A stretch of 64,000 nt of DNA from a virus, in the IMG/VR virus record IMGVR_UViG_3300024272_000069; one strand, 5' to 3'. Both the position numbers and the translations under genes were made by a program. This document shows, piece after piece, positions 5,611 through 25,588 of the stretch. Under the pieces are notes generated by a model. That model made no database searches, was not told where the DNA came from, and saw nothing but the letters and a program-made list of their open reading frames with translations. Numbering within the stretch: the first letter of the stretch is position 1; every line of letters starts with the position of its first letter.

Positions 5611-5776
5611 AGGTTGAGAGAGAAAAGAGAATGATAAGACAAGCCAGCTTGATATATTTGGTGGTGTCCCACAACCTTTTCCTCCAGCCTAACTAATATT
5701 AAGGGAAGGAAAACCCTGTAAACCAGTGTGGGTAGCAAATACGCCCACAGGGCAAATAGCCCAAGGAGATAATAAT

Positions 5777-6292
5777 ATGTCTGTTGAAACTCGTGAGGCA
5801 CTCCGTTCTAAGGTAATGGATACTCTTATGTCTACTTTCCCAGGCGCCCAGAAGGTTGTTGGCGGCGTCGCGTTCCTCTCTGATGTTGTTGATGAGGCTA
5901 CCGGTATGCTCTTCCCAGTTGAGCTAAAGGTAACTGTTAAGAACACTCAGGATACTGCTCGTTCCAAGGCTTATGACCTTGATGCCGAGGTTGCTAAGGC
6001 TGCTGAGCGTCCCGGCCGTCGTGTTGCTGATCCAGCTAAGAAGGCTCAGAAGGATGCTGAAAAGGCTGCTGCCGCGGAGCGTAAGGCTGCTAATGTTGCG
6101 ATCCTCCGTGAGTGGGTTAAGACCAATCTTCCAGCTGAGGGCATGATTCCTTCTGTTATCGCTGCGAATGTTCCTGAGTTTGCTGGCCTCAACCAGATGC
6201 AGGTTGGTACCTACCTAAAGGCTCTTGTTGAAGAGGGCGTGCTTAAGTTCGAGCTTGACGAGAAGCGTCATAAGGTTTACACCCTAGCGTGA
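5777..6292 (+). CDS. lysine/alanine-rich putative DNA-binding protein, paralog family member 1
   Basis: SD AAGGAG before the ATG; central low-complexity tract AKKAQKDAEKAAAAERKAA; shares VKNT...(Y/F)DLDA and MQVGTYLK motifs with 7918-8442 and 16279-16776. Confidence 0.65.
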   Translation: MSVETREALRSKVMDTLMSTFPGAQKVVGGVAFLSDVVDEATGMLFPVELKVTVKNTQDTARSKAYDLDAEVAKAAERPGRRVADPAKKAQKDAEKAAAAERKAANVAILREWVKTNLPAEGMIPSVIAANVPEFAGLNQMQVGTYLKALVEEGVLKFELDEKRHKVYTLA

Positions 6293-6390
6293 AAACCGCT
6301 TAATGTGAGAATTCAGGTGAAAGAGGATGACCCAGCTTGTTGGACGACTCAATGCCCGGTAATTCTTCACACATAATTTAATCCAATGAG

Positions 6391-6417
6391 GAAGCGAAGT
6401 AATTCGCTTCTTTTTTT
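6391..6417 (+). terminator. intrinsic terminator (GAAGCGAA-gta-ATTCGCTTC + T7)
   Basis: Perfect hairpin followed by TTTTTTT immediately downstream of gene 5777-6292. Confidence 0.75.
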
Positions 6418-6420
6418 ATT

Positions 6421-6700
6421 TGTGGGAAATTTTTAAAACAAAATTAATTTTATTTATTTAAAATAAATAATGAATTATAAAAAATAAAATAAAATAATAA
6501 AATATTTTTAAATAAATTTTATTAAAATAAATAAAATAAAATTATAAAATATAAAATAAAATTTTAAAATAAATTTATTTAAAATAAATAAAAATTAAAA
6601 TAAGTAAAATAAAATTATAAATTATAAAATAAAAATTAAAATAATAAAATAAATTTCTTTAAAATAAAATTTATTTAAAATAAACAAAATTTTTATTTAA
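6421..6700. other. ~280 bp essentially pure A+T tract with short tandem AAAATAAA(T)-type repeats; candidate DNA unwinding element of an origin
   Basis: Only a handful of G/C in ~280 nt; periodic aaaataaataaaat units; directly flanked by GC-rich iteron-like repeats. Confidence 0.45.
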
Positions 6701-6705
6701 AATTC

Positions 6706-6840
6706 TCCAGCTTATACAAACAAATCCTCCAGCTTGCTGGAGGGGCGCGGCCCAGGGTGCAGGGCACCCAGGGCCTCCAGCTTACCTACTTCCAGCTTCC
6801 AACCCAGCTTGTTCCAGCTTTCCAGCTTGTGTCAAATTTT
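6706..6840. repeat. iteron-like direct repeats (T)CCAGCTT x7-8 plus GC-rich islands and a perfect 15-bp palindrome TGTCAAATTTTGACA (~6826-6840)
   Basis: ttCTCCAGCTTatac...cCTCCAGCTTgctggagg...cCTCCAGCTTacctactTCCAGCTTccaacCCAGCTTgtTCCAGCTTtCCAGCTTgtgtcaaattttgaca; another CCAGCTT at ~6339. Confidence 0.5.
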
Positions 6841-6951
6841 GACATCCGTGGAGGGGTGCGGCACGGCCGCGAGGGGAAGGTGGGAGGGATCGCTGGAGGG
6901 TAGTTATAGAGGGATAATAGTTTGTTAGTCATAACTAACACCGGTGGGAGA

Positions 6952-6970
6952 TTAGATGTTGAACATCTAA
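6952..6970. repeat. 19-bp palindrome copy 1 (TTAGATGTTGAACATCTAA), 9 nt upstream of the -35 box of the promoter for gene 7051
   Basis: Perfect palindrome; followed by aaacgtgac-TTGACT-17-TATAAT. Confidence 0.9.
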
Positions 6971-6979
6971 AAACGTGAC

Positions 6980-7008
6980 TTGACTTTTTAGTGGGTATCC
7001 TGTATAAT
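6980..7008 (+). promoter_or_regulatory. sigma-A-type promoter TTGACT-N17-TATAAT for gene 7051
   Basis: -35 at 6980-6985, 17-nt spacer, -10 at 7003-7008. Confidence 0.75.
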
Positions 7009-7050
7009 AATACTTGCAAGGAGTCCTATAAACAAGAAGGAGGAAAACTT

Positions 7051-7278
7051 ATGAAGATTTGGATTGTAATGGTATGGGATTGCGATGACTGGGAGATTCT
7101 GGACGTTCTGTTCGATAGTGATGCGATTGCACCGCGTGTCACCGAACTGTTCAAAGAGGAAGAAGGCCGCACTGAAATCAAAGTAGAATGCTGGTATAAG
7201 GATCCCACTAATGAAGTCAATGGGTATTTTCTTGATGTTGATGCATATTGGCGGGATGATTGGCTGGAGGGTGAGTAA
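7051..7278 (+). CDS. hypothetical acidic Trp-rich small protein (75 aa)
   Basis: SD AAGGAGG 7 nt upstream; TAA stop. Confidence 0.55.
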   Translation: MKIWIVMVWDCDDWEILDVLFDSDAIAPRVTELFKEEEGRTEIKVECWYKDPTNEVNGYFLDVDAYWRDDWLEGE

Positions 7279-7292
7279 TCACCCTAATATAA

Positions 7293-7311
7293 TTAGATGT
7301 TCAACATCTAA
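7293..7311. repeat. palindrome copy 2 (TTAGATGTTCAACATCTAA) + promoter TTGACA(7321)-17-TATACT(7344)
   Basis: 9-nt gap between the palindrome and the -35 box. Confidence 0.9.
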
Positions 7312-7379
7312 AAATTAAAATTGACATATGGTCATATTTGTGGTATACTATCCATAGAAATAGAAAAGGAGTTGTCTGC

Positions 7380-7547
7380 ATGAAAGTTCTTCTTACTTGG
7401 ATGTATACGCATCCGCATGAGTTTATTCGTATTGTGTTTTTAATCATCATTGCGGCAATCTTTTCTCCTTGGCGTGTAGAGATTCTTTCTGTGTTGTTGT
7501 GCTTTGACTTGGTGTTGTTGTATCTGGTTAGAAATTGGAAGGAGTAA
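7380..7547 (+). CDS. small hydrophobic membrane protein (55 aa)
   Basis: SD AAAAGGAG; predicted transmembrane helix; internal ATG of the track ORF 7338. Confidence 0.4.
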   Translation: MKVLLTWMYTHPHEFIRIVFLIIIAAIFSPWRVEILSVLLCFDLVLLYLVRNWKE

Positions 7548-7551
7548 AATT

Positions 7552-7830
7552 ATGACCATTACTGTTGTTATCGAAGAAAATCATGGCCCTATCATTTATG
7601 CTAAGAATGATGACGCGGCAAAGCGTGCCCTGTTGGAAACGAATTGGGTAGACCAGTTCTCTGATGTATGGTGTCCTGATATGAGTGAAGATGCTCTCAT
7701 GGATGCCGGAGACTTCCGTGCATTGAAGGATGTCTATGGTGATAATTGGGAAGAGCAGTATCTTTCCTTTGATCATACTAAGCTGGAATTGATGGGTTAT
7801 CATTTTTATACCGTAGAGTTGTACGAATAA
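7552..7830 (+). CDS. hypothetical protein (92 aa)
   Basis: SD GGAAGGAG; ATG at 7552; TAA at 7828. Confidence 0.5.
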   Translation: MTITVVIEENHGPIIYAKNDDAAKRALLETNWVDQFSDVWCPDMSEDALMDAGDFRALKDVYGDNWEEQYLSFDHTKLELMGYHFYTVELYE

Positions 7831-7848
7831 TCGTACACTCCTTTTTTA

Positions 7849-7867
7849 TTAGATGTTGAACATCTAA
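7849..7867. repeat. palindrome copy 3, at a convergent gene junction with no adjacent promoter
   Basis: Between the stop of 7552-7830 (+) and the terminator of 7918-8442 (-). Confidence 0.9.
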
Positions 7868-7878
7868 AAATCGCCTAC

Positions 7879-7910
7879 AAAAAAATAACAGGGGATTTGC
7901 ATCCCCTGTT
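7879..7910 (-). terminator. intrinsic terminator (AACAGGGGAT-ttgc-ATCCCCTGTT) for minus-strand gene 7918-8442
   Basis: Perfect 10-bp stem; T-tract on the minus strand (A-tract 7879-7886 on plus). Confidence 0.7.
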
Positions 7911-7917
7911 ATTTCCA

Positions 7918-8442
7918 TCAGGCACGGCTGTAATACGGCTTGCCCTTCACGACTTCACGCTTGACCGTCTCGGCGTTGTCCGCGGCGATGTTCTTGAGGT
8001 AAGTACCCACCTGCATGACACTGACTTCGGCAAGCTCCGGAATCGCCGCCTTGATGTCGGTGGTGGTCATCGGCTCGTCAGTCAGATTGACCATGCACCA
8101 GTCCTTGACAAGCTCCTGCTCCGCGTTACGCTTCGCACGCTTCGCTTCGGCTTCGGGATCGACTTCCTTCGCCTTCTTCTCGGTCTTGGGTTTCGCGTCA
8201 TTCTCCGCACGGGCGGTGATGGCGGCATCCAGATCGAAAGCCGGAGAAGTCTTGGTGGCTTCAGTGTTCTTCACGGTGATTTCCACGGTGGCGAACACGG
8301 TGTTGCCGTTCTCGTCCTTCACGCCGGTGTCAATGGCGTAGCAGTCCTTCTTGGCAACGCGAACCGGAATCAGACCAGCAACGGAAGCGGCGATCAGGTT
8401 CTCAACAGCGGCATTGGCGGCAACACGAATCTCGTTCTTCAT
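7918..8442 (-). CDS. lysine/alanine-rich putative DNA-binding protein, paralog 2
   Basis: Shares VEITVKNTEATKTSPAFDLDAAI and MQVGTYLKNI with paralog 1; KTEKKAKEVDPEAEAKRAKR tract; TGA stop; two tandem upstream promoters (consensus TTGACA-17-TATAAT at ~8525-8555 on minus; a second next to palindrome 8650). Confidence 0.65.
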   Translation of the reverse strand: MKNEIRVAANAAVENLIAASVAGLIPVRVAKKDCYAIDTGVKDENGNTVFATVEITVKNTEATKTSPAFDLDAAITARAENDAKPKTEKKAKEVDPEAEAKRAKRNAEQELVKDWCMVNLTDEPMTTTDIKAAIPELAEVSVMQVGTYLKNIAADNAETVKREVVKGKPYYSRA

Positions 8443-8649
8443 AGGGTATCCCTTTCTGCTTTTTAGGTGGTCGCATCACCTGTCGTTTTGTTTTCCTCTC
8501 TTGAGGATGTATTCATTATACCAGAAGATTTGGAATCTGTCAAGAGTTTTTTGAAACTTTTTTCAATTTCTTTTTTCTCTTGTTCTGTTCCTCTCTCTCA
8601 GGTACGAATATAGTATACATCAAATTTTAGAAAAAGTCAATGCTTAATA

Positions 8650-8668
8650 TTAGATGTTCAACATCTAA
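8650..8668. repeat. palindrome copy 4, flanked by divergent promoters
   Basis: Rightward TTGACT(8678)-17-TATACT(8701) for 8737; leftward TTGACT-17-TATACT (8613-8641, minus) for 7918-8442. Confidence 0.9.
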
Positions 8669-8736
8669 AAATGGTTATTGACTTTTTGTTTTAGGTGTGC
8701 TATACTATCAGTACCAACTGAAAGGAAGTGCATAAA

Positions 8737-9495
8737 ATGAATGTCGTTGTATTCGACACCGAAACCGCAAACATGCAGAAACGTTTCTGCTATAATGTCG
8801 GGTATGTTATCCTTGACATTTCTACTGGTGAAAAGCTGGTGGAGCGTGACTTTGTAGTGGAGCAGATTTGGCATAATGTTGAACTGTTTGCAACTGCCTA
8901 TTATGCGGACAAGCGTGAACTGTATGTCAAGAAAATGCGTTCGCGTAAAGCGGTCATGGATAAATGGGGTTATATCATGCAAACTATGATGCGTGATTTC
9001 AAGCGGCATGAAGTGGTTTGTGCGTATGCGTATAACTCTCCATTCGATGACAAAGTGTTTACCTTTAACTGTGATTGGTTCAAAACTCAGAATCCTTTTG
9101 ACACGATTCCCATTTACGATCTTATGGGACTTGCCTGCGACTGTATCACGCAGTATGATACCTATCATAGTTACTGCGAAGAACACGAGTTTTTCACCGA
9201 ATCCGAAACCGAGTATTCCATCACCGCAGAAACAGTCTATAGGTTCATCACCGATGACCCGACTTTTGTAGAAGAACACACCGCCCTTGCGGATGCACGA
9301 ATTGAAGCAACCATTTTGATGCATTGTCTGAATATGGGGGCATATCCTGACCGAGAATATCCGGTTGTGCATCAGAAACGAGTGATTGAACGTCCGTTCA
9401 AAGTGACCGTTGATGGACAAGTTGTCGCAGAAGGAAAGTACATCAAGAAGTGGCGGCGAGGGGACATTGTTAAATATACGACAAAGAACGGATAA
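8737..9495 (+). CDS. DnaQ-like 3'-5' exonuclease (DEDDh family), paralog 1
   Basis: Motif I VVFDTETA and motif III HTALADARIE; the antisense 277-aa track ORF is an artefact. Confidence 0.7.
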   Translation: MNVVVFDTETANMQKRFCYNVGYVILDISTGEKLVERDFVVEQIWHNVELFATAYYADKRELYVKKMRSRKAVMDKWGYIMQTMMRDFKRHEVVCAYAYNSPFDDKVFTFNCDWFKTQNPFDTIPIYDLMGLACDCITQYDTYHSYCEEHEFFTESETEYSITAETVYRFITDDPTFVEEHTALADARIEATILMHCLNMGAYPDREYPVVHQKRVIERPFKVTVDGQVVAEGKYIKKWRRGDIVKYTTKNG

Positions 9496-9521
9496 CATCC
9501 GTTCTTTCTTTATGCGTGATT

Positions 9522-9540
9522 TTAGATGTTCAACATCTAA
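9522..9540. repeat. palindrome copy 5 at a convergent junction (no promoter)
   Basis: Between the stop of 8737-9495 and the minus terminator at 9553-9575. Confidence 0.9.
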
Positions 9541-9544
9541 TATA

Positions 9545-9575
9545 TAAAAAATAAGGATGATTATTCATCATCCTT
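9545..9575 (-). terminator. intrinsic terminator (AAGGATGAT-tattc-ATCATCCTT) for gene 9561-9956
   Basis: Perfect 9-bp stem; the stop codon lies in the loop; T-tract on the minus strand. Confidence 0.65.
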
Positions 9576-9956
9576 GAACATGTTTCGCATGGTTTCGTAA
9601 GTGTGCTCAAACTCCTTGAAGTCCTTCCACTCCGAATCATCGCAGTCGTAATAGTAACAACCTGCACCGTATTCAAAGGCATCCTGCCAACCATGTTTGT
9701 CCCACGGAGAGCCATAACCAACGGTACGCAGAATTTCGTGCAAGGTCGCCGCCTCTTCTGCACTGTGCGTCTTGATGTAATAGAAGTCCTCATAAACGAG
9801 ATTGTCCTCGTTCAGAAGTGGCATCGGTTCGCCGTAGCGGTCGAACAACTTGAATCCAAGATGTTCTTTGGGAATGGTGGAAACGGTTTCATACAGTTCG
9901 CAATCTTCCTCAGAATCGAACTCTTTGCCGTCATAAGCACGATAAACGATATCCAT
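9561..9956 (-). CDS. hypothetical acidic protein (131 aa)
   Basis: ORF track; SD AAAGGAG; TAA stop. Confidence 0.5.
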   Translation of the reverse strand: MDIVYRAYDGKEFDSEEDCELYETVSTIPKEHLGFKLFDRYGEPMPLLNEDNLVYEDFYYIKTHSAEEAATLHEILRTVGYGSPWDKHGWQDAFEYGAGCYYYDCDDSEWKDFKEFEHTYETMRNMFKDDE

Positions 9957-9984
9957 ATTTTTCTCCTTTCATTTGTGGAAGGTT

Positions 9985-10146
9985 TTACCCTTCCACAATC
10001 TTCCATCCATCTTTGTCAAGGTTTTCCATTAGATTGGCGGCGAAGGTTACACATTCTTCATCCGACCATCCAAGGTTGTTGCGAAGGTTGTCGCACGCCG
10101 CTTCAATCGCCGCGTTGAGTACGGTTGTCGTGATAGTCTTTTCCAT
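9985..10146 (-). CDS. small hypothetical protein (~53 aa, MEKTITTTVLNAAIEAACDNL...)
   Basis: SD AAAGGAG; promoter TTGACA-17-TAGAAT with palindrome 10215 7 nt upstream of the -35 box. Confidence 0.35.
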   Translation of the reverse strand: MEKTITTTVLNAAIEAACDNLRNNLGWSDEECVTFAANLMENLDKDGWKIVEG

Positions 10147-10214
10147 GTTGTTCGCTCCTTTTCTTTTTGTGATTATATTCTATCATAAAAAAGAGAATTT
10201 GTCAACAAATACTA

Positions 10215-10233
10215 TTAGATGTTCAACATCTAA
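10215..10233. repeat. palindrome copy 6
   Basis: Adjacent to the leftward promoter (10178-10208); ~40 nt upstream of the rightward promoter TTGACA(10274)-17-TATACT(10297). Confidence 0.9.
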
Positions 10234-10350
10234 AAATCTTTGAAAATAAAATAAAATAATTTCAAAAAACCTATTGACAAAAGTGGCAACATAGTATATA
10301 CTATAATTGTTCCAAGGAACAAAACAAATAAAAGAAAAGAGGAAACAAAC

Positions 10351-10938
10351 ATGACTAACAAGAACTTCATCAACCTGCGTTCCCACTATGTACCGGATGA
10401 AATCCGCGTCAATCCGTTGTTCAACAATGCTCAGGAGTGCTTTGATGCTATGATGCTGAGCATGGTTCAGAGATGGTATGACCGTTTGACTGACGATGCC
10501 CACAAGGCAATCAGGATTCTGAAGTTTAATCCTACTGTGGTGACTGGTATGATGTTCTTCACCGACGGTTCTATGGATGAAAAGCCGCAGTACTTCGGTA
10601 GCGACTATGAGGACATCGGCACCGAAATGAAGAACTTCGCCCTGTCTCTTGCCCAGAATGATGAAGAATACGAGAAGTGTCAGACCCGTGGTTATGTCCG
10701 CTGGTATAGCCGCATGGCTCAGTCGATCCGCTGGTATCAGAAGGGTATCGAAGATATCGAAAAGACGCACGAACTGACGCTTTCCATTCTGCCGCACGAA
10801 CTGAAAGAAAAGGTTATCGAACAGATTGTGTCTACCGATCCTGTCTGTCAGATGGCGGCACGCAACTACTATGAAGCACTGGAAGATGGACGCAAGGACA
10901 TGCTTCGCAATGCTTTGCAGAAGATGAGGGGTGTATAA
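10351..10938 (+). CDS. hypothetical protein (195 aa)
   Basis: ORF track; SD AGAGGAAA; own promoter at 10274-10302. Confidence 0.55.
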   Translation: MTNKNFINLRSHYVPDEIRVNPLFNNAQECFDAMMLSMVQRWYDRLTDDAHKAIRILKFNPTVVTGMMFFTDGSMDEKPQYFGSDYEDIGTEMKNFALSLAQNDEEYEKCQTRGYVRWYSRMAQSIRWYQKGIEDIEKTHELTLSILPHELKEKVIEQIVSTDPVCQMAARNYYEALEDGRKDMLRNALQKMRGV

Positions 10939-10960
10939 CCCCTCTTTCTTTTGCTGGAGG

Positions 10961-10979: not shown

Positions 10980-10991
10980 TAATTAGAAATG

Positions 10992-20283: not shown

Positions 20284-20284
20284 A

Positions 20285-20659
20285 TTATTTATCCGTCCTT
20301 TCATAATTGTAATGTTCATGAAGTTTGAAGTTGTAACCGCTGGTGGACCGAGAATCAAGCACTTTAATTTCAAGCGGCATTGTTTCTGCATCTCTATATT
20401 TTGCATAGCACGCAGAACAGACTTTCATAATGTCGGTGGCGTGGTCATTCTCCCACATAAGATAGTAAGAGTTATAACCATCGTCATCGGTAGTATAGAA
20501 GGTTTCTACAATGGTGACGTTCTCAGTATAACTTTCAACTTCTTTCATACTGTAATCAACCACGAAGTCAAACGCGGCCTTGCCCATACAAAAGACACAA
20601 AGAAGAATACCAAGAGTACAAAGAATACTAATAAGTGTTGGGCGGTTGGTTGTTCTCAT
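20285..20659 (-). CDS. small secreted/membrane protein (~124 aa)
   Basis: Signal/TM-like LISILCTLGILLCVFCMG. Confidence 0.4.
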   Translation of the reverse strand: MRTTNRPTLISILCTLGILLCVFCMGKAAFDFVVDYSMKEVESYTENVTIVETFYTTDDDGYNSYYLMWENDHATDIMKVCSACYAKYRDAETMPLEIKVLDSRSTSGYNFKLHEHYNYERTDK

Positions 20660-20725
20660 GTTTTCAATCTCCTTTCTTGATGATAATAGTATACAATAAA
20701 ATTTCAAATTTGTCAATAAATAATT

Positions 20726-20744
20726 TTAGATGTTGAACATCTAA
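20726..20744. repeat. palindrome copy 21
   Basis: AATTTGTCAATAAATA at ~20709. Confidence 0.9.
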
Positions 20745-20765
20745 TTATAAAAAAGATAAGAGAGT

Positions 20766-21032
20766 TTAATCTCTCTTATCCCAACCAGTGTACATCCATG
20801 CCAACAGGATAGGCCGCACAAGGTCATCACCCGTTTCAACATCTTCAAAGGTCATGATTTCCTGTGTGTCGATGTTGCGTACAACCAACTGACAATTACT
20901 GCGATTCCACCAGAAAGACAGGTGAGCATCAGAGCACTTGAAATCCATGATGTTATTCTTGATAAGAACATCAGTAAACAGATGAGCATCGTTGATAGTG
21001 AGGAAGTTAATACGAGAATAGCTGGTGACCAT
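20766..21032 (-). CDS. hypothetical protein (88 aa)
   Basis: ORF track; own consensus promoter TTGACA-17-TATAAT (21064-21102, minus) with no palindrome. Confidence 0.4.
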   Translation of the reverse strand: MVTSYSRINFLTINDAHLFTDVLIKNNIMDFKCSDAHLSFWWNRSNCQLVVRNIDTQEIMTFEDVETGDDLVRPILLAWMYTGWDKRD

Positions 21033-21098
21033 GTTTTACAACTCCTTTGTTCTTTTGATGGTTTTATTATACCATGAGATTAGGGATTTGTCAACCCC

Positions 21099-21344
21099 TT
21101 ATCTCAAAAAATATACATTTAATATTATCAGAGCGATTTGAATAATGTACAGATTCAAATGGGTTTTGTGCCGCGTGTTTAATGCAATGCTGAGAATAGA
21201 ATTTATCAAGCCCAGTATAGGTGCCCACCAATAACCCAGTACGACGAATATTACATTCAACACGGTGAACAGGGCAGAAACGTCGCCCCATTCAAATACA
21301 TACTTTTTCTTTTCAATTCCAAAGAACTCTTTTATGCTTCCCAT
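21099..21344 (-). CDS. small membrane protein (81 aa)
   Basis: ORF track; hydrophobic VIFVVLGYWWAPILGLINSILSIAL. Confidence 0.35.
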   Translation of the reverse strand: MGSIKEFFGIEKKKYVFEWGDVSALFTVLNVIFVVLGYWWAPILGLINSILSIALNTRHKTHLNLYIIQIALIILNVYFLR

Positions 21345-21472
21345 TCTTCTTCACATCCATCATACCATACACGTTTAATAGTCTTGCCATCTGCGGAAAT
21401 GAAATCTTCATATCCCATCCAAGAAGATTCTGCTTGCTGTTCGTCAATTTTGATCCAGTTATCAGAAGTCAT
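21332..21472 (-). CDS. small protein (~46 aa, MTSDNWIKIDEQQ...)
   Basis: ATG overlaps the TGA of the upstream small gene (coupled); SD GGAAAGGAAGG. Confidence 0.3.
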   Translation of the reverse strand: MTSDNWIKIDEQQAESSWMGYEDFISADGKTIKRVWYDGCEEEWEA

Positions 21473-21623
21473 ACACAGTACCTTCCTTTCCATCCTCAAA
21501 GCCCACGCCATAGCAACCGCAAGGACTTTCATACTCTGTCCAGTTCTTGCCTGCCGCGGTCAGTTCCCATCCATCCGCGAGCATCTGAGATTCGGTGACC
21601 TTCATGCCTTTTTCATATTTCAT
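21462..21623 (-). CDS. small Cys-containing protein (~53 aa, MKYEKGMKVTESQ...)
   Basis: Below the track's size threshold; follows palindrome 21715 on minus. Confidence 0.3.
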   Translation of the reverse strand: MKYEKGMKVTESQMLADGWELTAAGKNWTEYESPCGCYGVGFEDGKEGTVYDF

Positions 21624-21714
21624 TTATTCATCCCCTTTTTTCTTTATTCTATCATATGCTGGAGGAAATATCAAGGGGTTATTGAAAAATATTTTTACTT
21701 CTTCTAAAAGTATA

Positions 21715-21733
21715 TTAGATGTTCAACATCTAA
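21715..21733. repeat. palindrome copy 22
   Basis: Perfect copy; GCTGGAGG 50 nt upstream. Confidence 0.9.
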
Positions 21734-21753
21734 AGATGAAATTGTGGGACTGA

Positions 21754-21996
21754 TTAACAGTCCCATGTATAGCCGCCAACATAGGGGTCGAATCCTAACT
21801 CCAAATCATCCGCGGATTCAGAGCATCCATACTCTTCTTCCACATCGAAATCATCATCCCAATCCTCATAGGGATCATCGTCATCCTGATCGCACGGAGC
21901 CGGGAACATCGGGTCATCGTAGTGGCAACGCGGATAGGCTTCGTTCTCGTCCTTCCAGAAGTAGCCGCAGTTGCGGCGTTCGCATTCACTCATCAT
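21754..21996 (-). CDS. small acidic Cys-rich protein (~80 aa)
   Basis: Start MMSECERRNCGYF with SD GAGGAGG 9 nt upstream; DDDD/EE-rich C-terminal half. Confidence 0.35.
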   Translation of the reverse strand: MMSECERRNCGYFWKDENEAYPRCHYDDPMFPAPCDQDDDDPYEDWDDDFDVEEEYGCSESADDLELGFDPYVGGYTWDC

Positions 21997-22150
21997 GGTT
22001 TTCGTCCTCCTCTTCGTTCGTCGGGTACATCTCGTCAACCCATTCAAAACCAAATTCTTCGTATTCGGGGTGCTTCATGTTTATCGCTCCTTGCTTTCTT
22101 TTGATGGTTATATTGTACCACAGAAAAATGAAATTGTCAACACTTTTTTA

Positions 22151-22169
22151 TTAGATGTTCAACATCTAA
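22151..22169. repeat. palindrome copy 23
   Basis: AAATGAAATTGTCAACAC at ~22119. Confidence 0.9.
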
Positions 22170-22193
22170 TTATGTCGGGGTGGTTAACCCCTG

Positions 22194-22511
22194 TTAGAAA
22201 TCGTTTGTTTCATAATGTCTGAATGTACCATCGAATCTGTAATACATCACCACGAAACAACCATTATCAAACCAAATATCAATTTCAAAGAAATCATCCT
22301 CATTACCGGTAGTATATACATCAACAACGTCCGTCATGTATTCGTAACCGTTAGCATGAAGTCGATCTGAAAGTTCCTTGAAACTGTATTGCGTAAGTTG
22401 TTCAACGAACTCTTTCATTTTGATAACTCCTTCTAAAAGCATATTCTTCCGGCGTAAGGTTGCGAACCTTAACCACTCGGCCGCACAATCCCCGTGATAC
22501 TTTAACCGCAT
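22194..22511 (-). CDS. hypothetical protein (105 aa)
   Basis: ORF track. Confidence 0.35.
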   Translation of the reverse strand: MRLKYHGDCAAEWLRFATLRRKNMLLEGVIKMKEFVEQLTQYSFKELSDRLHANGYEYMTDVVDVYTTGNEDDFFEIDIWFDNGCFVVMYYRFDGTFRHYETNDF

Positions 22512-22646
22512 TCAAAATGCAATCACTCTTAATATAGTACGTCAAACCATTTTGAAATGTAAGGGCGTAGTACTTCATGGAATCATCTTCTTTCCTTTTG
22601 TTGTTTATAGTCTAACATAAAAAATGAAATTTGTCAATACTTGAAA

Positions 22647-22665
22647 TTAGATGTTCAACATCTAA
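22647..22665. repeat. palindrome copy 24
   Basis: AAATGAAATTTGTCAATAC at ~22621. Confidence 0.9.
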
Positions 22666-22687
22666 TTATAAAAGGATTTGGTATTAA

Positions 22688-22864
22688 ACCAAATCCGCGA
22701 GTTTATTTTCTACAAAGGCGGCATCTTCAACACGGCAAGTCACCGTGATTTCACCATTGCGGAAATAAGCAAAGCAAGGAATGCGTTCTGCGATTTCATC
22801 AAGGCGTTCGTGAATCAGAGAGGAAAGGATGGTGGGATCGGCGTAAACAGAGATGGTCTTCATG
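22688..22864 (-). CDS. small protein (~58 aa, MKTISVYADPTILSSLIHERLDEIAERIPCFAYFRNGEITVTCR...)
   Basis: Minus-strand reading; SD AAAGGAGG; promoter TTGACA-17-TATAAT at ~22898-22936 (minus). Confidence 0.35.
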
Positions 22865-22955
22865 GGGTTGCCTCCTTTAGTTTGTTTTCTTTTCTTTTTG
22901 TAATTATATTATAGCACACAAAAATGAAATTGTCAACCCCTAAAATAAAAAATTT

Positions 22956-22984
22956 CCCGATGGAGTTAGCTACTCTCCATCGGG
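22956..22984 (-). terminator. intrinsic terminator (CCCGATGGAG-ttagctact-CTCCATCGGG + T-rich on minus)
   Basis: Perfect 10-bp stem; minus-sense downstream AAATTTTTTATTTT. Confidence 0.6.
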
Positions 22985-23140
22985 TCGCACCTCAATATAT
23001 TTATCGCCCGAATCACCGCGAGGCCGTGCAGTGACCGTTTGGAACAGTTATCAAATTATAAGGTGGGTTCGTGCGTTGGCTGTTCCCCTTCGCAAGTTGC
23101 CCTTACACTAAATCAAGTTTCATCAACTACCTTTCTTTCC
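22985..23140 (-). ncRNA. candidate ~150-nt non-coding RNA with its own promoter and terminator
   Basis: Promoter TTGACA-17-TATTAT (23140-23179, minus) with palindrome 23192 upstream; terminator at 22956-22984; no ORF beyond 8 codons; GC-rich relative to flanks. Confidence 0.35.
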
Positions 23141-23191
23141 TTTCGACATGTATATAATAACACAAAATGCTGGAGGTGTCAATAGTCTTTT

Positions 23192-23210
23192 TTAGATGTT
23201 GAACATCTAA
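23192..23210. repeat. palindrome copy 25
   Basis: 9-nt gap to TTGACA (minus) whose spacer contains CCTCCAGC. Confidence 0.9.
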
Positions 23211-23231
23211 AAATAAAAAGGAAAGATGACG

Positions 23232-23519
23232 TTAGTCATCTTCCGCATTCCAACCAACATTCACTGCAGAAACATTGGAGCAATCAATGAAGATTTCTCC
23301 TGCTTCATTGCGAATGCTCATCAGGCCATAATCAGCAACAAACTGGTCAATCAGAGTGATGATTTCAGCTGCCGCACGACTACGCTCATTCTTCTGCTTT
23401 TCACGTTCATCCTTGAGCCTTTCAGCCGCTTCAATGAATGCGGCCAATTCATCATCAGAGCCAACAGAGAAGATGTATTCACCAATACGAACAGAGCTTT
23501 CCATAGAGACTACCTCATT
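23232..23519 (-). CDS. hypothetical protein (~95 aa, MESSVRIGEYIF...)
   Basis: Internal ATG of the track ORF. Confidence 0.4.
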   Translation of the reverse strand, partial: NEVVSMESSVRIGEYIFSVGSDDELAAFIEAAERLKDEREKQKNERSRAAAEIITLIDQFVADYGLMSIRNEAGEIFIDCSNVSAVNVGWNAEDD

Positions 23520-23576
23520 TCTTTCTTTTGATAGCATTATTGTAGCATATTGCAGGCTGTTTGTCAATGCAGGTTC

Positions 23577-23595
23577 TTAGACGTTCTACATCTAA
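23577..23595. repeat. palindrome copy 26 (degenerate: TTAGACGTTCTACATCTAA)
   Basis: Preceded by TTTGTCAATGC at ~23560. Confidence 0.7.
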
Positions 23596-23618
23596 CTTTT
23601 ATAAAAAAAGGATTCGCT

Positions 23619-23876
23619 TTACAGCGAATCCGTAGACAGATAACAGCTCCTAACAACAGCGTTGGCAACCTCACCAGAAAACTCAACATCTTCGAACTCG
23701 AAGATCTCTTCGCTATGCAGGTTCTCACAATGCAGCAGCAGGTTCTCATCCCACGAAAAGACCAGCACAACGTCAGTCGTTTCCAGTCGCAGGTTGTAGT
23801 GTTCATACAGTTCATCAGCAGCAGCCAGCATTTCACGCATGGTCAGGTCGAGCAGGCTCTTCTCAAAGTTCTTCAT
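23619..23876 (-). CDS. hypothetical protein (85 aa)
   Basis: ORF track. Confidence 0.4.
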   Translation of the reverse strand: MKNFEKSLLDLTMREMLAAADELYEHYNLRLETTDVVLVFSWDENLLLHCENLHSEEIFEFEDVEFSGEVANAVVRSCYLSTDSL

Positions 23877-23917
23877 AGCTTAAACCTCACTTTCAATTCT
23901 TAAGAAGGTGGAGAGCC

Positions 23918-24253
23918 TCAGCTCTCCACCACGATATCCCAGTCCTCCAGCTGTGCGTAGATTGCACAGCACTCGGAAGCCCACACTTCCCGCGTCGTCG
24001 GCTCATAGCAGCCGAACTCGTCAGGGTCAGGAGCCCACACCTTGACCATGCCATAGCACCAGTCGACGTAAGCCTTGACAGCCTTCTCAGCTTCATCAGC
24101 TTTTACCATGTAGAAACGGCTGTTGCTGTCGTCCATCACAGTGCAGTCATCGCCAGCTTTGAGAACACGGACGGTGATTTCTTCAGACTCAAGGTCAAAG
24201 GAAGCCAGCTTGCCTTCGCGAGTATTGAAGGTGTACTTGTTGATATTCATCAT
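23918..24253 (-). CDS. hypothetical protein (111 aa)
   Basis: ORF track. Confidence 0.4.
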   Translation of the reverse strand: MMNINKYTFNTREGKLASFDLESEEITVRVLKAGDDCTVMDDSNSRFYMVKADEAEKAVKAYVDWCYGMVKVWAPDPDEFGCYEPTTREVWASECCAIYAQLEDWDIVVES

Positions 24254-24322
24254 AATAGAAACCTCTCTTTCATGTCGTAGCTTTTTGAAGGGGGAAGGGG
24301 GGAAGGGGCTTTCGCCCCTTCC

Positions 24323-25081
24323 TCAGCCGTTAATCTTGACCTTTACGAGCTTGCCGGTGTCGCGGAACGTCGGCCAGTCATAGGAGTGTTCGTCGTAGAT
24401 GTGGTAGAGCCAGCTGAGCTTCTTGCCAGAGTTGGCAACCGACTGGAAGTTGATGCAGGTTTCACCGTTGACCTTAAACCATGTCAGCATGTCGCCCTTG
24501 AACTCTTCCAGCCGATAAACCAGCTCATCCATCGGAAGGAAGATGCAGGGATTTTCGTCGAACTTTTCCCAGCCACGCATGGACGGGTCAAAGTACCAGA
24601 CCAGCCACTTGCCAGCGTCGCAAGCGTCTGCCAGCACTTGCCAGCATTCATCAATGCTGATGCCGTTGGCAACGCAACCGCCGCCGCTTTTCAGCTCAAC
24701 CACGATGCGAGACTTTTCCAGCATATCCGCCGCGTCGTCGTCGCACTGAATCGTAATATCAGGCTGACCAGCCGGACGGCAGGCGATATCAACGATATCG
24801 AGAGCCAGCCCACGAGCCGCCGCCTTTTTGCAACGGTTGAAAGAATCAGCCGCTTTTCCGAACGTGCCAGTTGAGCCTTTTTCAGCCTGTCGGCTCAATT
24901 CGCCGCTGACGTAATTTTCCCACGCCATGCGGATTGCGTCGCCGCTAATCTGACGCTGAGAAGTGTGCTTGATGATTCCATGCTCAAACAGATCAACCGC
25001 GATTTTCGCCGCTCTGTTTTCCTTCTCTGCCTTTGCTTTTTCGCGGAGCTTTTTGCTCATCTCAAAATTCGTGTATGCCAT
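24323..25081 (-). CDS. hypothetical protein, possible PD-(D/E)xK-type nuclease (D...ELK motif)
   Basis: DIVDIACR...IVVELKSGGG resembles a D-(x)n-ExK core; promoter TTGACA-17-TATAAT at ~25195-25235 (minus) with a ~110-nt leader. Confidence 0.4.
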   Translation of the reverse strand: MAYTNFEMSKKLREKAKAEKENRAAKIAVDLFEHGIIKHTSQRQISGDAIRMAWENYVSGELSRQAEKGSTGTFGKAADSFNRCKKAAARGLALDIVDIACRPAGQPDITIQCDDDAADMLEKSRIVVELKSGGGCVANGISIDECWQVLADACDAGKWLVWYFDPSMRGWEKFDENPCIFLPMDELVYRLEEFKGDMLTWFKVNGETCINFQSVANSGKKLSWLYHIYDEHSYDWPTFRDTGKLVKVKING

Positions 25082-25588
25082 GGTATAACCTTCTTTCTGT
25101 TAAATGTTTGTCAATGTGTTCATGAGTGACTATGATCCCGTCAGTGGTCTTGACTCCGGCGGTTGAGCATCGTCGGCAACTGTTGATCTCTATCAACTGT
25201 ATTCATTATAAGGGATACAAGGCTATTTGTCAACGGCTTTTTTGAATTTTTTTCAGATTTTTTCAAAGAAATTTTTGCAGGATATTTTGCAGGATTGCTT
25301 GCATTTTACTTTCACACTTTAGCGTGCTAAATCCTACTAAGGGGCAGGGGTTTCAGGCGTCTGTTAGCCCTCCCTAACGACCGACCCCGTGGTCTCCACA
25401 TTATCCGATAGAATTCAATTTTAAAAAATCAGCACCCATCTCACCAATCAAAAAATTTCACTACAACTGTAATTCAATCAAATTTCCCCGCACTCTATTT
25501 TCCCCAAATTTTACTTTTTTGTAAAAAAGTGATAAAATTTTAGTATAAGAAAAAACTAGACAGAAATAAACTGTCAAGGAGCAAAGAC

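What the first reader, a model, noticed from the sequence alone, without database searches (positions are those of the whole stretch)
5700..25100. Complete absence of in-frame TAG in ~45 early genes versus a rising TAG density along the late operon
The early region (both strands) has intact ORFs ending in TAA/TGA with no internal TAG. Late genes carry TAGs: head genes 1-5 each, tail genes (tape measure, Tal, fibers) dozens. This fits the use of a late-appearing suppressor tRNA as a translational timer, or as a lock against premature or host-directed expression. The density gradient would delay tail protein synthesis relative to head proteins.
Basis: partly seen in the sequence, partly recalled or inferred. 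Interest (0 to 1): 0.7.

Follow-up and report, generated by a model that had tools for sequence, protein, structure and literature searches.

The report
Amber-recoded late genes in a phage
This is part of a large gut phage that reads the stop codon TAG as an amino acid (most likely glutamine) in its virion genes but keeps TAG out of its early and replication genes, which is a known phage strategy; how often each late gene uses TAG follows its codon-usage class, not its position in the operon.

Summary
The core observation is real. The 37 called early genes (5.7-25.1 kb) have no in-frame TAG in about 4,600 codons. The + strand late operon (25.6-66 kb) needs TAG read as sense: 141 in-frame TAGs in 20 genes, none ending in TAG. 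Long-ORF coverage rises from 0.64 to 1.00 and a 4,022-codon tape-measure gene appears.

The "rising gradient" is not positional. Head genes carry 2.7 TAG per 1000 codons and tail genes 14.1. But the major tail protein, inside the tail block, has 0 in 301 codons, and scaffold-like g5, g6, the major capsid protein and g8 also have none. Position adds nothing once GC3 or CAG preference is modelled. In the distant relative Phass-1, tail genes come first and the same gene classes are TAG-rich or TAG-free.

Recoding also occurs outside the operon: two fibre genes, a GIY-YIG endonuclease and an 803-codon ORFan. AT-rich replication genes stay TAG-free.

No suppressor tRNA was found in about 114 kb of the contig (at least 174 kb), so "late-appearing suppressor" is untested. 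The early-standard, late-recoded pattern and the timer or lock model are already published (Borges et al.; Phass-1; crAss-like phages). This is a new member of a known kind.

The parts
5726..25081 (.). Early region: 37 called genes, 32 on the - strand and 5 on the + strand, GC-rich and CAG-preferring. No in-frame TAG; stops are TAA 25, TGA 11, TAG 1.
   Evidence: JGI gene calls; codon counts; 85 sigma70-like promoter matches against 41 +/- 7 expected, 26 of them matching at least 11 of 12 positions.
6953..23214 (.). 23 exact copies of the 19-bp palindrome TTAGATGTT[G/C]AACATCTAA. Each is intergenic and usually lies 8-10 nt upstream of a TTGACA-N17-TATAAT promoter and next to the previous gene's terminator hairpin. 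This marks the early transcription class.
   Evidence: No copies in the late operon or in the flanks L001, L005 and L008.
13451..13526 (-). tRNA-Lys(UUU). It matches the AAA-rich codon usage of the TAG-containing late genes and is not a suppressor.
13719..13801 (-). tRNA-Leu(CAA), with a long variable arm. It is not a suppressor and groups with the ordinary Phass-1 tRNA-Leu(UAA) rather than with the Phass-1 suppressors.
13864..14052 (-). 62-codon ORF, the only early call that ends in TAG. Read-through would run across the tRNA-Leu gene, so this is either a true TAG stop or a spurious ORF.
25589..26854 (+). g1, the first late gene. Its C-terminus matches PHROG 5767, labelled 'sigma factor', and it has a Zn-ribbon. 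Start is GTG 25589 behind an AAGGAG site. 3 in-frame TAGs at 25643, 25688 and 25775.
   Evidence: no Pfam hit.
26857..27789 (+). g2 (PHROG 3314, in the position of a small terminase subunit), 1 TAG at 26995.
   Evidence: Homology covers residues 9-273 across the TAG.
27770..29554 (+). g3, large terminase subunit, 2 TAGs (27809, 27893).
   Evidence: PHROG alignment begins upstream of the first TAG-free ATG at 27914; 34% identity to Phass-1 TerL.
29560..31110 (+). g4, portal protein, 2 TAGs (29914, 31051).
   Evidence: PHROG 2739 aligns over residues 22-520 of one continuous protein; tblastn to portal proteins of large siphoviruses.
31122..34673 (+). g5-g8: scaffold-like coiled-coil protein, g6, major capsid protein g7 (33125-34156) and g8. 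All are TAG-free, with CAG preferred 33:6 over CAA and higher GC3 except in g8.
   Evidence: g7 is 38% identical to Phass-1 ORF25, annotated 'major capsid protein'.
34688..35131 (+). g9 (PHROG 3853), 1 TAG at 34793.
35386..36327 (+). g11, 1 TAG at 35947, which joins two standard-code ORFs into one gene.
   Evidence: PHROGs 5251 and 16444 span the TAG.
36803..37573 (+). g13 (PHROG 4051), 5 TAGs in 256 codons.
37588..38493 (+). g14, major tail (tube) protein: 0 TAG in 301 codons, CAG only, GC3 0.44. A strong terminator-like hairpin follows at 38520-38541.
   Evidence: homologs annotated 'major tail protein'.
38567..39382 (+). g15, a paralog of g14, 3 TAGs. A terminator-like hairpin follows at 39386-39413.
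39442..51510 (+). g16, giant tape-measure protein of 4,022 codons with 64 in-frame TAGs (27% of Gln-type codons).
   Evidence: Standard-code homologs of 2,400-4,700 aa carrying PF10145, 42-49% identical in the core.
51517..53073 (+). g17, 3 TAGs.
53092..58596 (+). g18, tail protein of 1,834 codons, 20 TAGs.
   Evidence: PHROG 3267, labelled tail protein.
58614..61586 (+). g19, 990 codons, 17 TAGs (49% of Gln-type codons).
61600..64000 (+). g20, a repeat-rich fibre-like protein that runs off the window. 11 TAGs inside the window; the full gene ends at 64935 with 19 TAGs in 1,111 codons. g21 (64944-66026, 3 TAGs) and a strong terminator at about 66.03 kb close the operon.
   Evidence: through locus L005.
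1..581 (-). 5' part of a fibre gene of about 625 codons that continues beyond the window start and reads through 1 TAG there. It belongs to a - strand fibre block that also holds a 1,005-codon FN3-repeat gene with 6 TAGs.
   Evidence: L001 11485-13362 and 14238-17255.
3617..4438 (-). Sigma-70 region-4 HTH gene (4055-4438) that ends in TAG at 4052-4054. A 139-codon ORF with no ATG and no Shine-Dalgarno site follows in the same frame. This is a candidate TAG read-through fusion of 273 aa.
   Evidence: PHROG alignments extend about 37 residues past the TAG with slightly better E-values. The support is weak.

Best explanation
The window is part of a large siphovirus genome of at least 174 kb from goat-gut metagenomes. 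The phage uses a code-15-type reassignment, reading TAG as a sense codon that is most likely glutamine.

TAG appears never to act as a genuine stop in this genome, with one dubious 62-codon ORF as the only exception. It is kept out of the genes that must be translated by an unmodified host: the sigma70-driven early genes and the replication and nucleotide-metabolism genes.

Among genes that tolerate TAG, usage follows codon-usage class. The high-copy virion proteins (major capsid, scaffold-like, major tail protein) use GC-rich, CAG/AAG-type codons and hold no TAG. The low-copy, long, AT-rich genes (tape measure, tail and fibre proteins, terminase, portal, an ORFan, a homing-type endonuclease) use TAG for 8-59% of their Gln-type codons.

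Shown here: the reassignment itself, the early versus late partition, and the link between TAG density and codon class, which is replicated in Phass-1. Inferred: that a phage-supplied amber suppressor turns on decoding after early gene expression, and that TAG-free status in the major structural genes reflects selection for efficient translation, because TAG decoding competes with release factor 1. The head-to-tail 'gradient' is a by-product of where these two gene classes happen to lie.
For: Reassignment. Long-ORF coverage of the late operon rises from 0.64 to 1.00 when TAG is sense, but only to 0.66 in the TGA control; the longest ORF goes from 552 to 4,040 codons. Profile homology spans the TAGs in seven proteins. 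None of 21 late genes ends in TAG. TAG has the same +4 and -1 base context as CAA/CAG.

Gln identity. Q is the commonest residue at TAG columns in 19 standard-code tape-measure homologs (23% against a 5.5% background; 13 of 19 at the best column). Opposite our TAGs, Phass-1 has Q or its own TAG in 3 of 13 columns. Q has the best BLOSUM sum, 16.0, with E next at 14.0. Code 15 has been confirmed by proteomics in other phages (PMC9523058).

Partition. Early genes have 0 TAG in 4,614 codons. Strong sigma70 promoters occur only in the early region. AT-rich replication genes are TAG-free.

Codon class rather than position. Poisson likelihood-ratio tests; three distinct codon classes; g14 is the major tail protein; g7 is the capsid protein, not flagged as carrying suppressor TAGs in all three Phassvirus genomes. 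In Phass-1, TAG density against GC3 gives rho = -0.70 (p = 8e-4) and against position rho = -0.43.

Apparent TAG stops of long ORFs outside the operon turn out to be sense TAGs.
Against: No tRNA-Sup(CUA), release factor or GlnRS was found in about 114 kb examined, so the decoding agent is not demonstrated for this phage. The Gln assignment rests on few well-aligned columns, and Glu scores nearly as well. Expression levels are inferred from protein identity, not measured. g10 and g12 are AT-rich yet TAG-free, although they are short (86 and 162 codons). Some fibre genes with GC3 of about 0.2 (484 aa, 439 aa, and the N-terminus of a 2,171-aa protein) are also TAG-free, so codon class is not the whole story. 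The identity of g5 as a scaffold protein is inferred only from its position and coiled coil.
Confidence: 0.75

Rival explanations
1. TAG density rises with distance along the late operon and acts as a graded translational delay, so tail proteins appear later than head proteins once a late suppressor tRNA accumulates.
For: Head genes average 2.7 TAG per 1000 codons and tail genes 14.1. Density correlates with position: Spearman rho = 0.49-0.55, p = 0.01-0.03.
Against: Position is not significant once GC3 or CAG fraction is in the model (p = 0.13 and 0.49). The major tail protein, inside the tail block, has 0 TAG in 301 codons (P = 0.014 at its neighbours' rate). In Phass-1 the tail genes come first and the trend reverses. 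No suppressor has been located, so 'late-appearing' has no support; the Phass-1 suppressors lie on the standard-code arm.
Confidence: 0.08
2. Selected, gene-specific lock. TAGs are kept in particular genes whose premature or host-forced expression would be harmful or wasteful: the first late gene g1, terminase, portal, tape measure, fibres, a homing-type endonuclease and the ORFan. Early TAGs abort translation quickly. The major capsid and tail proteins are left unlocked. On this view TAG placement is regulatory, not a by-product of weak selection.
For: Every essential assembly gene except the major shell and tube proteins has at least one TAG. g1 has 3 TAGs in its first 63 codons. In genes under 700 codons, 58% of TAGs lie in the first quarter against 26% of CAA/CAG codons (Mann-Whitney p = 0.01; first-TAG permutation p = 0.04). 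A GIY-YIG endonuclease in the replication arm is recoded, which parallels the recoded intron endonuclease reported by Borges et al..
Against: The 5' skew is not seen in Phass-1 (mean relative position 0.63), and it partly depends on my start-codon choices for g1 and TerL. In the giant genes TAGs are spread almost evenly. TAG density is predicted well by GC3 alone (residual deviance p = 0.18), as weak selection plus AT pressure would give. There is no context bias around TAG.
Confidence: 0.25
3. TAG is reassigned, but to an amino acid other than glutamine, for example Glu, or Leu through a long-arm suppressor like the 88-nt Sup-CTA of Phass-1.
For: Glu scores nearly as well as Gln at the TAG columns (14.0 against 16.0). 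Phass-1 carries a long-arm Sup-CTA next to a tRNA-Leu. This phage's own suppressor has not been seen.
Against: Q is the single commonest residue at TAG columns in close homologs. TAG plus CAA plus CAG makes up about 2.4-6% of codons across TAG-containing late genes, and several of them would have unusually little Gln without TAG (g20 1.2%, g13 1.6%, g19 1.8%). Hydrophobic residues are rare opposite TAG. TAG to Gln is the only amber reassignment validated in phages (PMC9523058; Phass-1 paper).
Confidence: 0.1
4. Artefact. The late region is degraded, mis-assembled or pseudogenised, and the in-frame TAGs are real stops.
For: None beyond the fragmentation seen under the standard code.
Against: Only TAG interrupts the frames; TAA and TGA never do. 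The same sequence is recovered from at least 15 independent contigs and samples, with 1-7 differences in the compared overlaps of 6.4-14.3 kb. Homology continues across the TAGs.
Confidence: 0.01

Closest known systems
Alternatively coded (stop-codon-recoded) gut phages described by Borges et al. (bioRxiv 10.1101/2021.08.26.457843; TAG-recoded clades such as crAss-like, Garnet, Amethyst, Topaz and Lak)
   Same: TAG is used as a sense codon in structural genes, while genes expressed before the code switch stay compatible with the standard code. The genome is low in GC. A homing-type endonuclease is recoded. Recoded genes lie in more than one module. That paper already proposes the model in which suppression gates late translation.
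   Different: A different lineage: a large siphovirus related to SPbeta-like and Bacillus, Enterococcus and Lactococcus phages. No suppressor tRNA, release factor or aaRS has been seen yet. No lysis cassette was identified in the recoded operon within the DNA examined. Borges et al. report a tail tube gene as preferentially recoded in crAss-like phages, whereas the tube protein here is TAG-free.
Phage Phass-1 and the proposed genus Phassvirus (OQ749652; PMC10607447; NCBI 'Caudoviricetes code 15 clade')
   Same: It gives the lowest E-values among annotated phages for the portal (28% identity) and is among the closest for the capsid protein (38%); local alignment gives 34% identity for TerL. It has a giant tape-measure gene rich in TAG (3,150 codons, 110 TAGs), a TAG-free, CAG-only capsid gene, one strand holding the recoded virion genes and a long opposite-strand arm that is mostly standard code. 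TAG density correlates negatively with GC3.
   Different: Identity is only 20-38%. Module order differs, with tails before heads in Phass-1. Phass-1 has 36 tRNAs including 3 Sup-CTA, while only 2 ordinary tRNAs were found in about 114 kb here. The Phass-1 replication arm holds scattered TAGs (2.7 per 1000 codons), while ours is cleaner apart from discrete recoded genes. Our genome is larger (at least 174 kb against 136 kb).
TAG-recoded crAss-like phages (Yutin et al., PMC7886860; Peters et al., PMC9523058)
   Same: Code 15 is confined mainly to late and structural genes. TAG to Gln has been shown there by proteomics.
   Different: An unrelated podovirus-like lineage that infects Bacteroidota, and those genomes carry identifiable suppressor tRNAs.
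Codon-usage partition between early and late genes in tRNA-carrying phages such as the T4-like phages, as cited by Borges et al.
   Same: Early and late genes use different synonymous codons. The phage tRNA-Lys(UUU) matches the AAA-rich late class.
   Different: Here the extreme case is a reassigned stop codon. There is also a third class, the major structural genes, that returns to GC-rich codons.

Membership tests
Code-15 (TAG to Gln) alternatively coded phage | In-frame TAGs inside conserved genes, with homology continuing across them | tested here: met
   PHROG alignments span the TAGs in g2, TerL, portal, g9, g11, g13 and g15. The tape-measure core aligns to standard-code homologs across its TAGs.
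Code-15 (TAG to Gln) alternatively coded phage | Coding density and ORF length are restored by reading TAG as sense, but not by reading TGA as sense | tested here: met
   Late operon coverage rises from 0.64 to 1.00 with TAG as sense, but only to 0.66 with TGA as sense. The longest ORF goes from 552 to 4,040 codons.
Code-15 (TAG to Gln) alternatively coded phage | TAG is not used as a terminator in recoded genes | tested here: met
   The 20 tabulated late genes end in TAA (17) or TGA (3), and g21 also does not end in TAG, so none of the 21 late genes ends in TAG. Apparent TAG stops of long ORFs elsewhere continue in frame.
Code-15 (TAG to Gln) alternatively coded phage | TAG positions correspond to glutamine in homologs | tested here: inconclusive
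   Q is the top residue: 23% against a 5.5% background in close tape-measure homologs, and 3 of 13 columns are Q or TAG in Phass-1. The BLOSUM sum is Q 16.0 against E 14.0. Few columns align well. Two larger searches failed.
Code-15 (TAG to Gln) alternatively coded phage | A phage-encoded amber suppressor tRNA (anticodon CUA), or other code-change machinery such as RF2 or GlnRS | tested here: inconclusive
   None was found in the window or in flanks covering about -9.4 to +104.5 kb (ARAGORN; Rfam; Pfam). About 60 kb of the 173.9-kb contig could not be reached. Borges et al. detected TAG suppressors in only 40% of TAG-recoded genomes.
Code-15 (TAG to Gln) alternatively coded phage | Early and replication genes are compatible with the standard code | tested here: met
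   0 TAG in 4,614 early codons. Replication-arm ORFs are intact.
Code-15 (TAG to Gln) alternatively coded phage | The host uses the standard code | not testable with these tools
   The host is unknown. Firmicutes-type signals (AAGGAGG ribosome-binding sites, TTGACA-17-TATAAT promoters with an extended -10, and relatives that infect Bacillota) suggest a standard-code host.
Phassvirus-related group of large code-15 siphoviruses | Orthologous TerL, portal, capsid and tape-measure proteins with shared architecture | tested here: met
   Identities to Phass-1: TerL 34%, portal 28.5%, MCP 38%, tape-measure core 30%. This is distant family-level relatedness only, not membership of the genus. No nucleotide-level match was found.
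   Position given GC3 has p = 0.13 and position given CAG fraction has p = 0.49. g14 has 0 TAG inside the tail block. The positional trend is reversed in Phass-1.

The most novel reading that the evidence does not exclude
TAG usage in this lineage is a tuned translational control, not drift. Selection keeps the major shell and tube proteins free of TAG, so they are made at full rate and possibly before suppression is complete. It loads low-copy or dangerous proteins with TAGs, often near the 5' end: the first late gene g1, terminase, portal, tape measure, fibres, a homing endonuclease and an 803-codon ORFan in the replication arm. Suppressor level would then set both their timing and their stoichiometry. 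A sigma-region-4 regulator (4055-4438) would switch from a 128-aa form to a 273-aa form by TAG read-through, acting as a built-in sensor of the code change. A further possibility is that the phage carries no suppressor of its own.
Probability: 0.15. Interest if true: 0.6.

Novelty: new member of a known kind. Interest (0 to 1): 0.33.

Why it matters
Stop-codon reassignment in phages is a real case of two genetic codes operating in one cell. It breaks standard gene calling: here the public pipelines split a 4,022-codon tape-measure gene and about 40 kb of virion genes into dozens of fragments.

This window adds a clean, previously uncharacterised example from a lineage of large Firmicutes-type siphoviruses. 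Its most useful contribution is a correction to an attractive idea. The head-to-tail rise in TAG density is explained by codon-usage class, and probably expression level, rather than by operon position, and the same holds in an independent relative with the opposite module order. That gives a testable rule for recoded phages: high-copy virion proteins avoid the reassigned codon.

The finding does not change the known model. It does supply good material for testing it, because the early class is sharply defined (23 identical operators with consensus promoters) and sits next to a fully recoded operon.

Tried and rejected
- Nucleotide search of GenBank phages with the early and late regions found no match.
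- Position-specific base composition could not settle the coding strand in the early region, where both strands look coding and many long antisense ORFs exist. I used translations, JGI gene calls and homology instead.
- Walking to the rest of the 174-kb contig to find a suppressor tRNA mostly failed. IMG/VR exact-DNA probes gave about 17 kb on the right arm and then stalled. Both metagenome scans found nothing. A protein search meant to recover the 2,171-aa neighbour returned only short paralogs. Protein-level IMG/VR scans added about 17.5 kb more on the right arm and nothing on the left. No tRNA turned up in any of this DNA.
- I tested whether the window's tRNA-Leu(CAA) is related to the Phass-1 long-arm suppressor. 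It is not; it groups with the ordinary tRNA-Leu(UAA).
- Composite queries to collect more TAG columns gave little.
- Internal-repeat alignments to read the identity of TAG were noisy, because BLAST did not keep the low-identity FN3 repeats in register. Only anecdotal columns support Q.
- There is no codon-context bias around TAG.
- The 5' clustering of TAGs is nominally significant here but not in Phass-1, so I kept it only as a tentative point.
- The AlphaFold single-sequence model of g7 was unusable (pLDDT 33), and sequence searches of the PDB found nothing for g7 or g14. Their identities came from annotated homologs instead.
- Pfam gave nothing for g1, so the 'sigma factor' label rests on one PHROG hit to its C-terminus.

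Full report
WHAT THE WINDOW IS. The window is a segment of a large phage genome. Exact-protein look-ups place it on a 173,889-bp JGI metagenome contig (3300029705 Ga0224414_10000596) and on many shorter contigs from related samples. Copies from different samples differ from the window by only 1-7 bases in the overlaps compared (6.4-14.3 kb of the tail region). GenBank phages hold nothing similar at the nucleotide level. At the protein level, the portal, capsid, major tail and terminase proteins are 25-38% identical to those of phage Phass-1 and of large siphoviruses of Bacillus, Enterococcus, Staphylococcus (SPbeta-like), Lactococcus and Clostridioides. Phass-1 (OQ749652) is a 136-kb TAG-recoded phage placed in NCBI's 'Caudoviricetes code 15 clade'.

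CHECKING THE OBSERVATION: LATE GENES. Under the standard code the + strand from 25.6 kb to the window end is fragmented. Reading TAG as sense, and only TAG, restores a gap-free series of genes. Coverage by ORFs of at least 100 codons rises from 0.64 to 1.00, against 0.66 for the TGA-sense control, and the longest ORF grows from 552 to 4,040 codons.

Profile homology runs across the TAGs in the TerS-like gene, TerL, portal, g9, g11, g13 and g15. I delimited starts using Shine-Dalgarno context. The first late gene, however, most likely starts at GTG 25589 behind an AAGGAG site and holds three TAGs in its first 63 codons.

The final tally, extended 2 kb past the window through locus L005, is 20 genes, 12,998 codons and 141 in-frame TAGs. 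Stops are TAA 17, TGA 3 and TAG 0. One more fibre-like gene (3 TAGs) and a strong terminator at about 66.03 kb end the operon.

CHECKING THE OBSERVATION: EARLY GENES. Independent standard-code gene calls give 37 genes between 5.7 and 25.1 kb, 32 on the - strand and 5 on the + strand. They contain no in-frame TAG in 4,614 codons, while the two other frames hold 20 TAGs each. Stops are TAA 25, TGA 11 and TAG 1.

Because genes called under the standard code cannot contain TAG, I looked for evidence that does not depend on those calls.
- The region carries 85 sigma70-like promoter matches against 41 +/- 7 expected. Twenty-six match at least 11 of 12 positions, nearly all with 17-nt spacers and most with an extended -10 TG. 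It also has twice the expected number of terminators. The late operon shows no excess (53 against 62 +/- 7) and nothing convincing on its coding strand.
- An exact 19-bp palindrome, TTAGATGTT[G/C]AACATCTAA, occurs 23 times, always intergenic and just upstream of these promoters, and nowhere else in about 114 kb examined. Each early gene is therefore bounded by its own promoter and terminator, and the standard-code ORFs fill those intervals.
- None of eight TAG-containing candidate ORFs in the early region has any PHROG homology.
- The replication and nucleotide-metabolism arm to the right of the window (gyrase A and B, ligase, RNase H, dNMP kinase, dUTPase and others) is as AT-rich at third positions as the tail genes (GC3 about 0.2). 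It nevertheless consists of intact ORFs of 340-860 codons with no TAG.

So TAG avoidance in non-virion genes is a real property and not an artefact of gene calling.

IS THERE A GRADIENT? TAG density is clearly heterogeneous. Head genes g1-g12 hold 10 TAGs in 3,695 codons and tail genes g13-g20 hold 131 in 9,303. With the earlier gene starts this gave Fisher p = 8e-11 and a heterogeneity chi-square of p = 2e-4.

But it is not a function of position. g14 has 0 TAG in 301 codons, flanked by genes with 19.5 and 11.1 TAG per 1000 codons; its homologs are annotated as the major tail protein. g5-g8 also have none. These include the major capsid protein g7, which is 38% identical to Phass-1 ORF25, annotated 'major capsid protein'.

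These TAG-free genes prefer CAG (39 CAG to 6 CAA) and AAG, and all but g8 are also the GC-richer late genes. The remaining late genes use CAA, AAA and TTA, and use TAG for 29% of their Gln-type codons, rising to 49-59% in the last two genes.

In a Poisson regression, position adds nothing once GC3 (p = 0.13) or CAG fraction (p = 0.49) is included. GC3 and CAG fraction remain highly significant given position (p = 9e-7 and 1e-7). The residual deviance is unremarkable.

Phass-1 gives an independent replicate. There the tape-measure and tail genes come first and the capsid genes last. TAG density still falls with GC3 (rho = -0.70, p = 8e-4) and with CAG fraction (rho = -0.73, p = 4e-4), while the positional trend is reversed (rho = -0.43). 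Its capsid gene is TAG-free and uses only CAG, and it is not flagged as carrying suppressor TAGs in the curated annotation of all three Phassvirus genomes.

The 'rising gradient' is therefore a by-product of where the two codon classes lie in this genome.

BEYOND THE FINDING'S COORDINATES. Recoding is not confined to the + strand operon.
- The - strand block to the left of the early genes encodes fibre-like proteins. One starts in the window at about 581 and reads through 1 TAG in about 625 codons. Another, an FN3-repeat protein, has 6 TAGs in 1,005 codons. Others are TAG-free (484 aa, 439 aa, and the N-terminus of a 2,171-aa protein).
- The replication arm holds an 803-codon ORFan with 15 TAGs and no family match.
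- The same arm holds a GIY-YIG endonuclease made of two standard-code fragments joined by TAG, with a second TAG inside. This echoes the recoded homing endonuclease reported by Borges et al..
- The sigma-70 region-4 HTH gene at 4055-4438 ends in TAG. A 139-codon ORF that has no ATG and no ribosome-binding site follows in frame. PHROG alignments extend slightly past the TAG. This is a candidate read-through fusion with weak support.

Every apparent TAG stop of a long ORF turned out to continue in frame. The only TAG stop left is a 62-codon ORF beside the tRNAs, and its extension would run through the tRNA-Leu gene.

WHAT TAG ENCODES. In 19 full-length, standard-code tape-measure homologs (42-49% identity), Q is the commonest residue at the aligned TAG columns: 23% against a 5.5% background, and 13 of 19 at the best-conserved column. 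Opposite our TAGs, Phass-1 has Q or its own TAG in 3 of 13 columns, and polar residues in most of the rest. Gln has the highest BLOSUM sum (16.0), with Glu second (14.0). TAG plus CAA plus CAG makes up about 2.4-6% of codons across TAG-containing genes. TAG has the same neighbouring-base context as CAA and CAG. Together with the published evidence for TAG to Gln in Phass-1 and crAss-like phages, Gln is the likely reading, but it is not proven here.

THE DECODING AGENT. The window holds only tRNA-Lys(UUU) and tRNA-Leu(CAA). The Lys tRNA fits the AAA-rich late codon class. The Leu tRNA reads a codon that is rare everywhere and is not related to the Phass-1 suppressors. No tRNA, release factor or aminoacyl-tRNA synthetase was found in flanking DNA reaching from about -9.4 kb to +104.5 kb in window coordinates. 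About 60 kb of the contig could not be reached.

In Phass-1 all three Sup-CTA genes lie on the standard-code arm, two beside the anaerobic ribonucleotide reductase genes and one in the tRNA array. Genome-length relatives of our phage carry a tRNA array in the corresponding arm, including Gln-CUG and Gln-UUG, but no CUA tRNA is in the part I could see. The claim of a 'late-appearing' suppressor is therefore untested for this phage. By analogy, a suppressor would more likely be made from the early or middle arm.

MECHANISM. Shown: TAG is a sense codon in the virion genes and in a few other genes. It is excluded from the sigma70-driven early genes and from the replication genes. Within TAG-tolerant genes its frequency follows codon-usage class.

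Inferred: infection starts under the host's standard code, and a phage-supplied amber suppressor then makes TAG-containing genes translatable. Because g1, terminase, portal, tape measure and the fibres all contain TAG, no particles can form before that point.

The major capsid, scaffold-like and major tail proteins are needed in hundreds of copies. They avoid TAG and AT-rich codons, most simply because suppression competes with release factor 1 and is less efficient than ordinary decoding. Long, low-copy genes drift towards AT-rich codons, where CAG to TAG is a single transition. Strong terminator-like hairpins directly after g14 and g15 fit a drop in expression after the major tail protein.

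A more adaptive reading, with TAGs placed as gene-specific locks clustered near the 5' end, has some support here: 58% of TAGs in the smaller genes lie in the first quarter against 26% of CAA/CAG codons (p = 0.01). It is not replicated in Phass-1 and partly depends on start-codon choices.

COMPARISON WITH WHAT IS KNOWN, AND NOVELTY. The pattern and its interpretation are already in the literature. Borges et al. describe diverse gut phages with standard-code early or replication genes and recoded structural and lysis genes, with suppressor tRNAs encoded in standard code. They propose that recoding times late protein synthesis and blocks premature or host-forced expression. Phass-1 and its relatives show the same in a related lineage. 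Code 15 has been confirmed by proteomics in crAss-like phages.

This window is a new, previously unannotated member of that kind. What is added here is modest: positional gradients can be discarded in favour of a codon-class and expression rule that replicates in Phass-1, and discrete recoded genes (an ORFan and an endonuclease) sit inside an otherwise clean standard-code arm.

VERDICT. Interest is about 0.33.

Noticed in passing
window 6953-23214 (23 sites, e.g. 6954, 8652, 10217, 14112, 19452, 22153, 23194): The exact 19-bp palindrome TTAGATGTT[G/C]AACATCTAA is repeated 23 times. It is always intergenic, with a near-consensus TTGACA-N17-TATAAT promoter 8-10 nt away on one side and the previous gene's terminator hairpin on the other. 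It is probably the operator of a dimeric regulator that controls the whole early class. It is absent from the late operon and from all flanks examined.
   Followed up: partly
window 5726-6292 (+), 7918-8442 (-), 16279-16776 (-), 16958-17359 (-): A family of 3-4 paralogous early proteins of about 130-190 aa, with an Ala/Lys-rich linker; the first three also share a winged-helix-like C-terminus (motif MQVGTYLK or similar). They lie on both strands and are very GC-rich (51-58%). They are candidate DNA-binding proteins and possibly bind the palindrome.
   Followed up: no
window 8.6-20.4 kb: Many early genes have a long ORF on the opposite strand, for example 8665-9498 (-) against 8728-9495 (+), and 10183-11115 (-) against 10351-10938 (+). 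Stop codons are depleted on both strands in this region, so ORF length alone does not reveal the coding strand. Homology and translations were needed.
   Followed up: partly
window 39442-51510: The tape-measure protein has 4,022 residues, among the longest known, which implies a very long tail. It contains large internal duplications. Homologs of 2,400-4,700 aa exist in metagenomes.
   Followed up: partly
window 3617-4438 (-): A sigma-70 region-4 HTH gene ends in TAG and is followed in frame by a 139-codon ORF with no ATG and no ribosome-binding site. It may be a regulator with a short form and a TAG-read-through long form. Support is weak.
   Followed up: partly
L020 ~741-3152 (same phage, roughly +101 to +104 kb in window coordinates, window - strand): An 803-codon ORFan with 15 in-frame TAGs sits among standard-code nucleotide-metabolism and replication genes. 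It has no PHROG or Pfam match.
   Followed up: partly
L008 11386-12380 (about window +70 kb, window - strand): A GIY-YIG endonuclease gene is split by TAG into two standard-code ORFs and has a second TAG inside. It is a recoded homing-type endonuclease in the replication arm, as Borges et al. reported for Agate phages.
   Followed up: partly
window 31122-34673, 37588-38493 versus the other late genes and the early genes: The genome has three distinct codon-usage classes. The TAG-free major structural genes use CTA for 42% of Leu codons and never use CTG. Early genes use CTG for 32% and CTA for 3%. The other late genes use TTA for 51%. GC content drops from 0.41-0.58 in most early genes to 0.29-0.35 in the tail genes.
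   Followed up: partly
window 38520-38541 and 39386-39413: Strong intrinsic-terminator-like hairpins lie inside the late operon, directly after the major tail protein gene and after its paralog. They may attenuate expression of the downstream tape-measure and fibre genes.
   Followed up: no
window 50866-50938 (compared with L006) and ~24323 (compared with L011): Six of the seven differences between L006 and the window fall within 73 bp near the 3' end of the tape-measure gene, in otherwise near-identical sequence. Another strain has a 2-bp indel at the 3' end of gene 24323-25081.
   Followed up: no
window 13451-13526 and 13719-13801: Both phage tRNA genes encode their 3' CCA. tRNA-Leu(CAA) decodes TTG, which makes up only 1-12% of Leu codons in every gene class, so its role is unclear.
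   Followed up: partly
window 6293-7050 and 25082-25588: These are the two longest non-coding stretches. The first is AT-rich with several weak promoter-like sites. The second separates the divergent early and late units and holds no consensus sigma70 promoter facing the late operon, so what drives late transcription is unknown.
   Followed up: no
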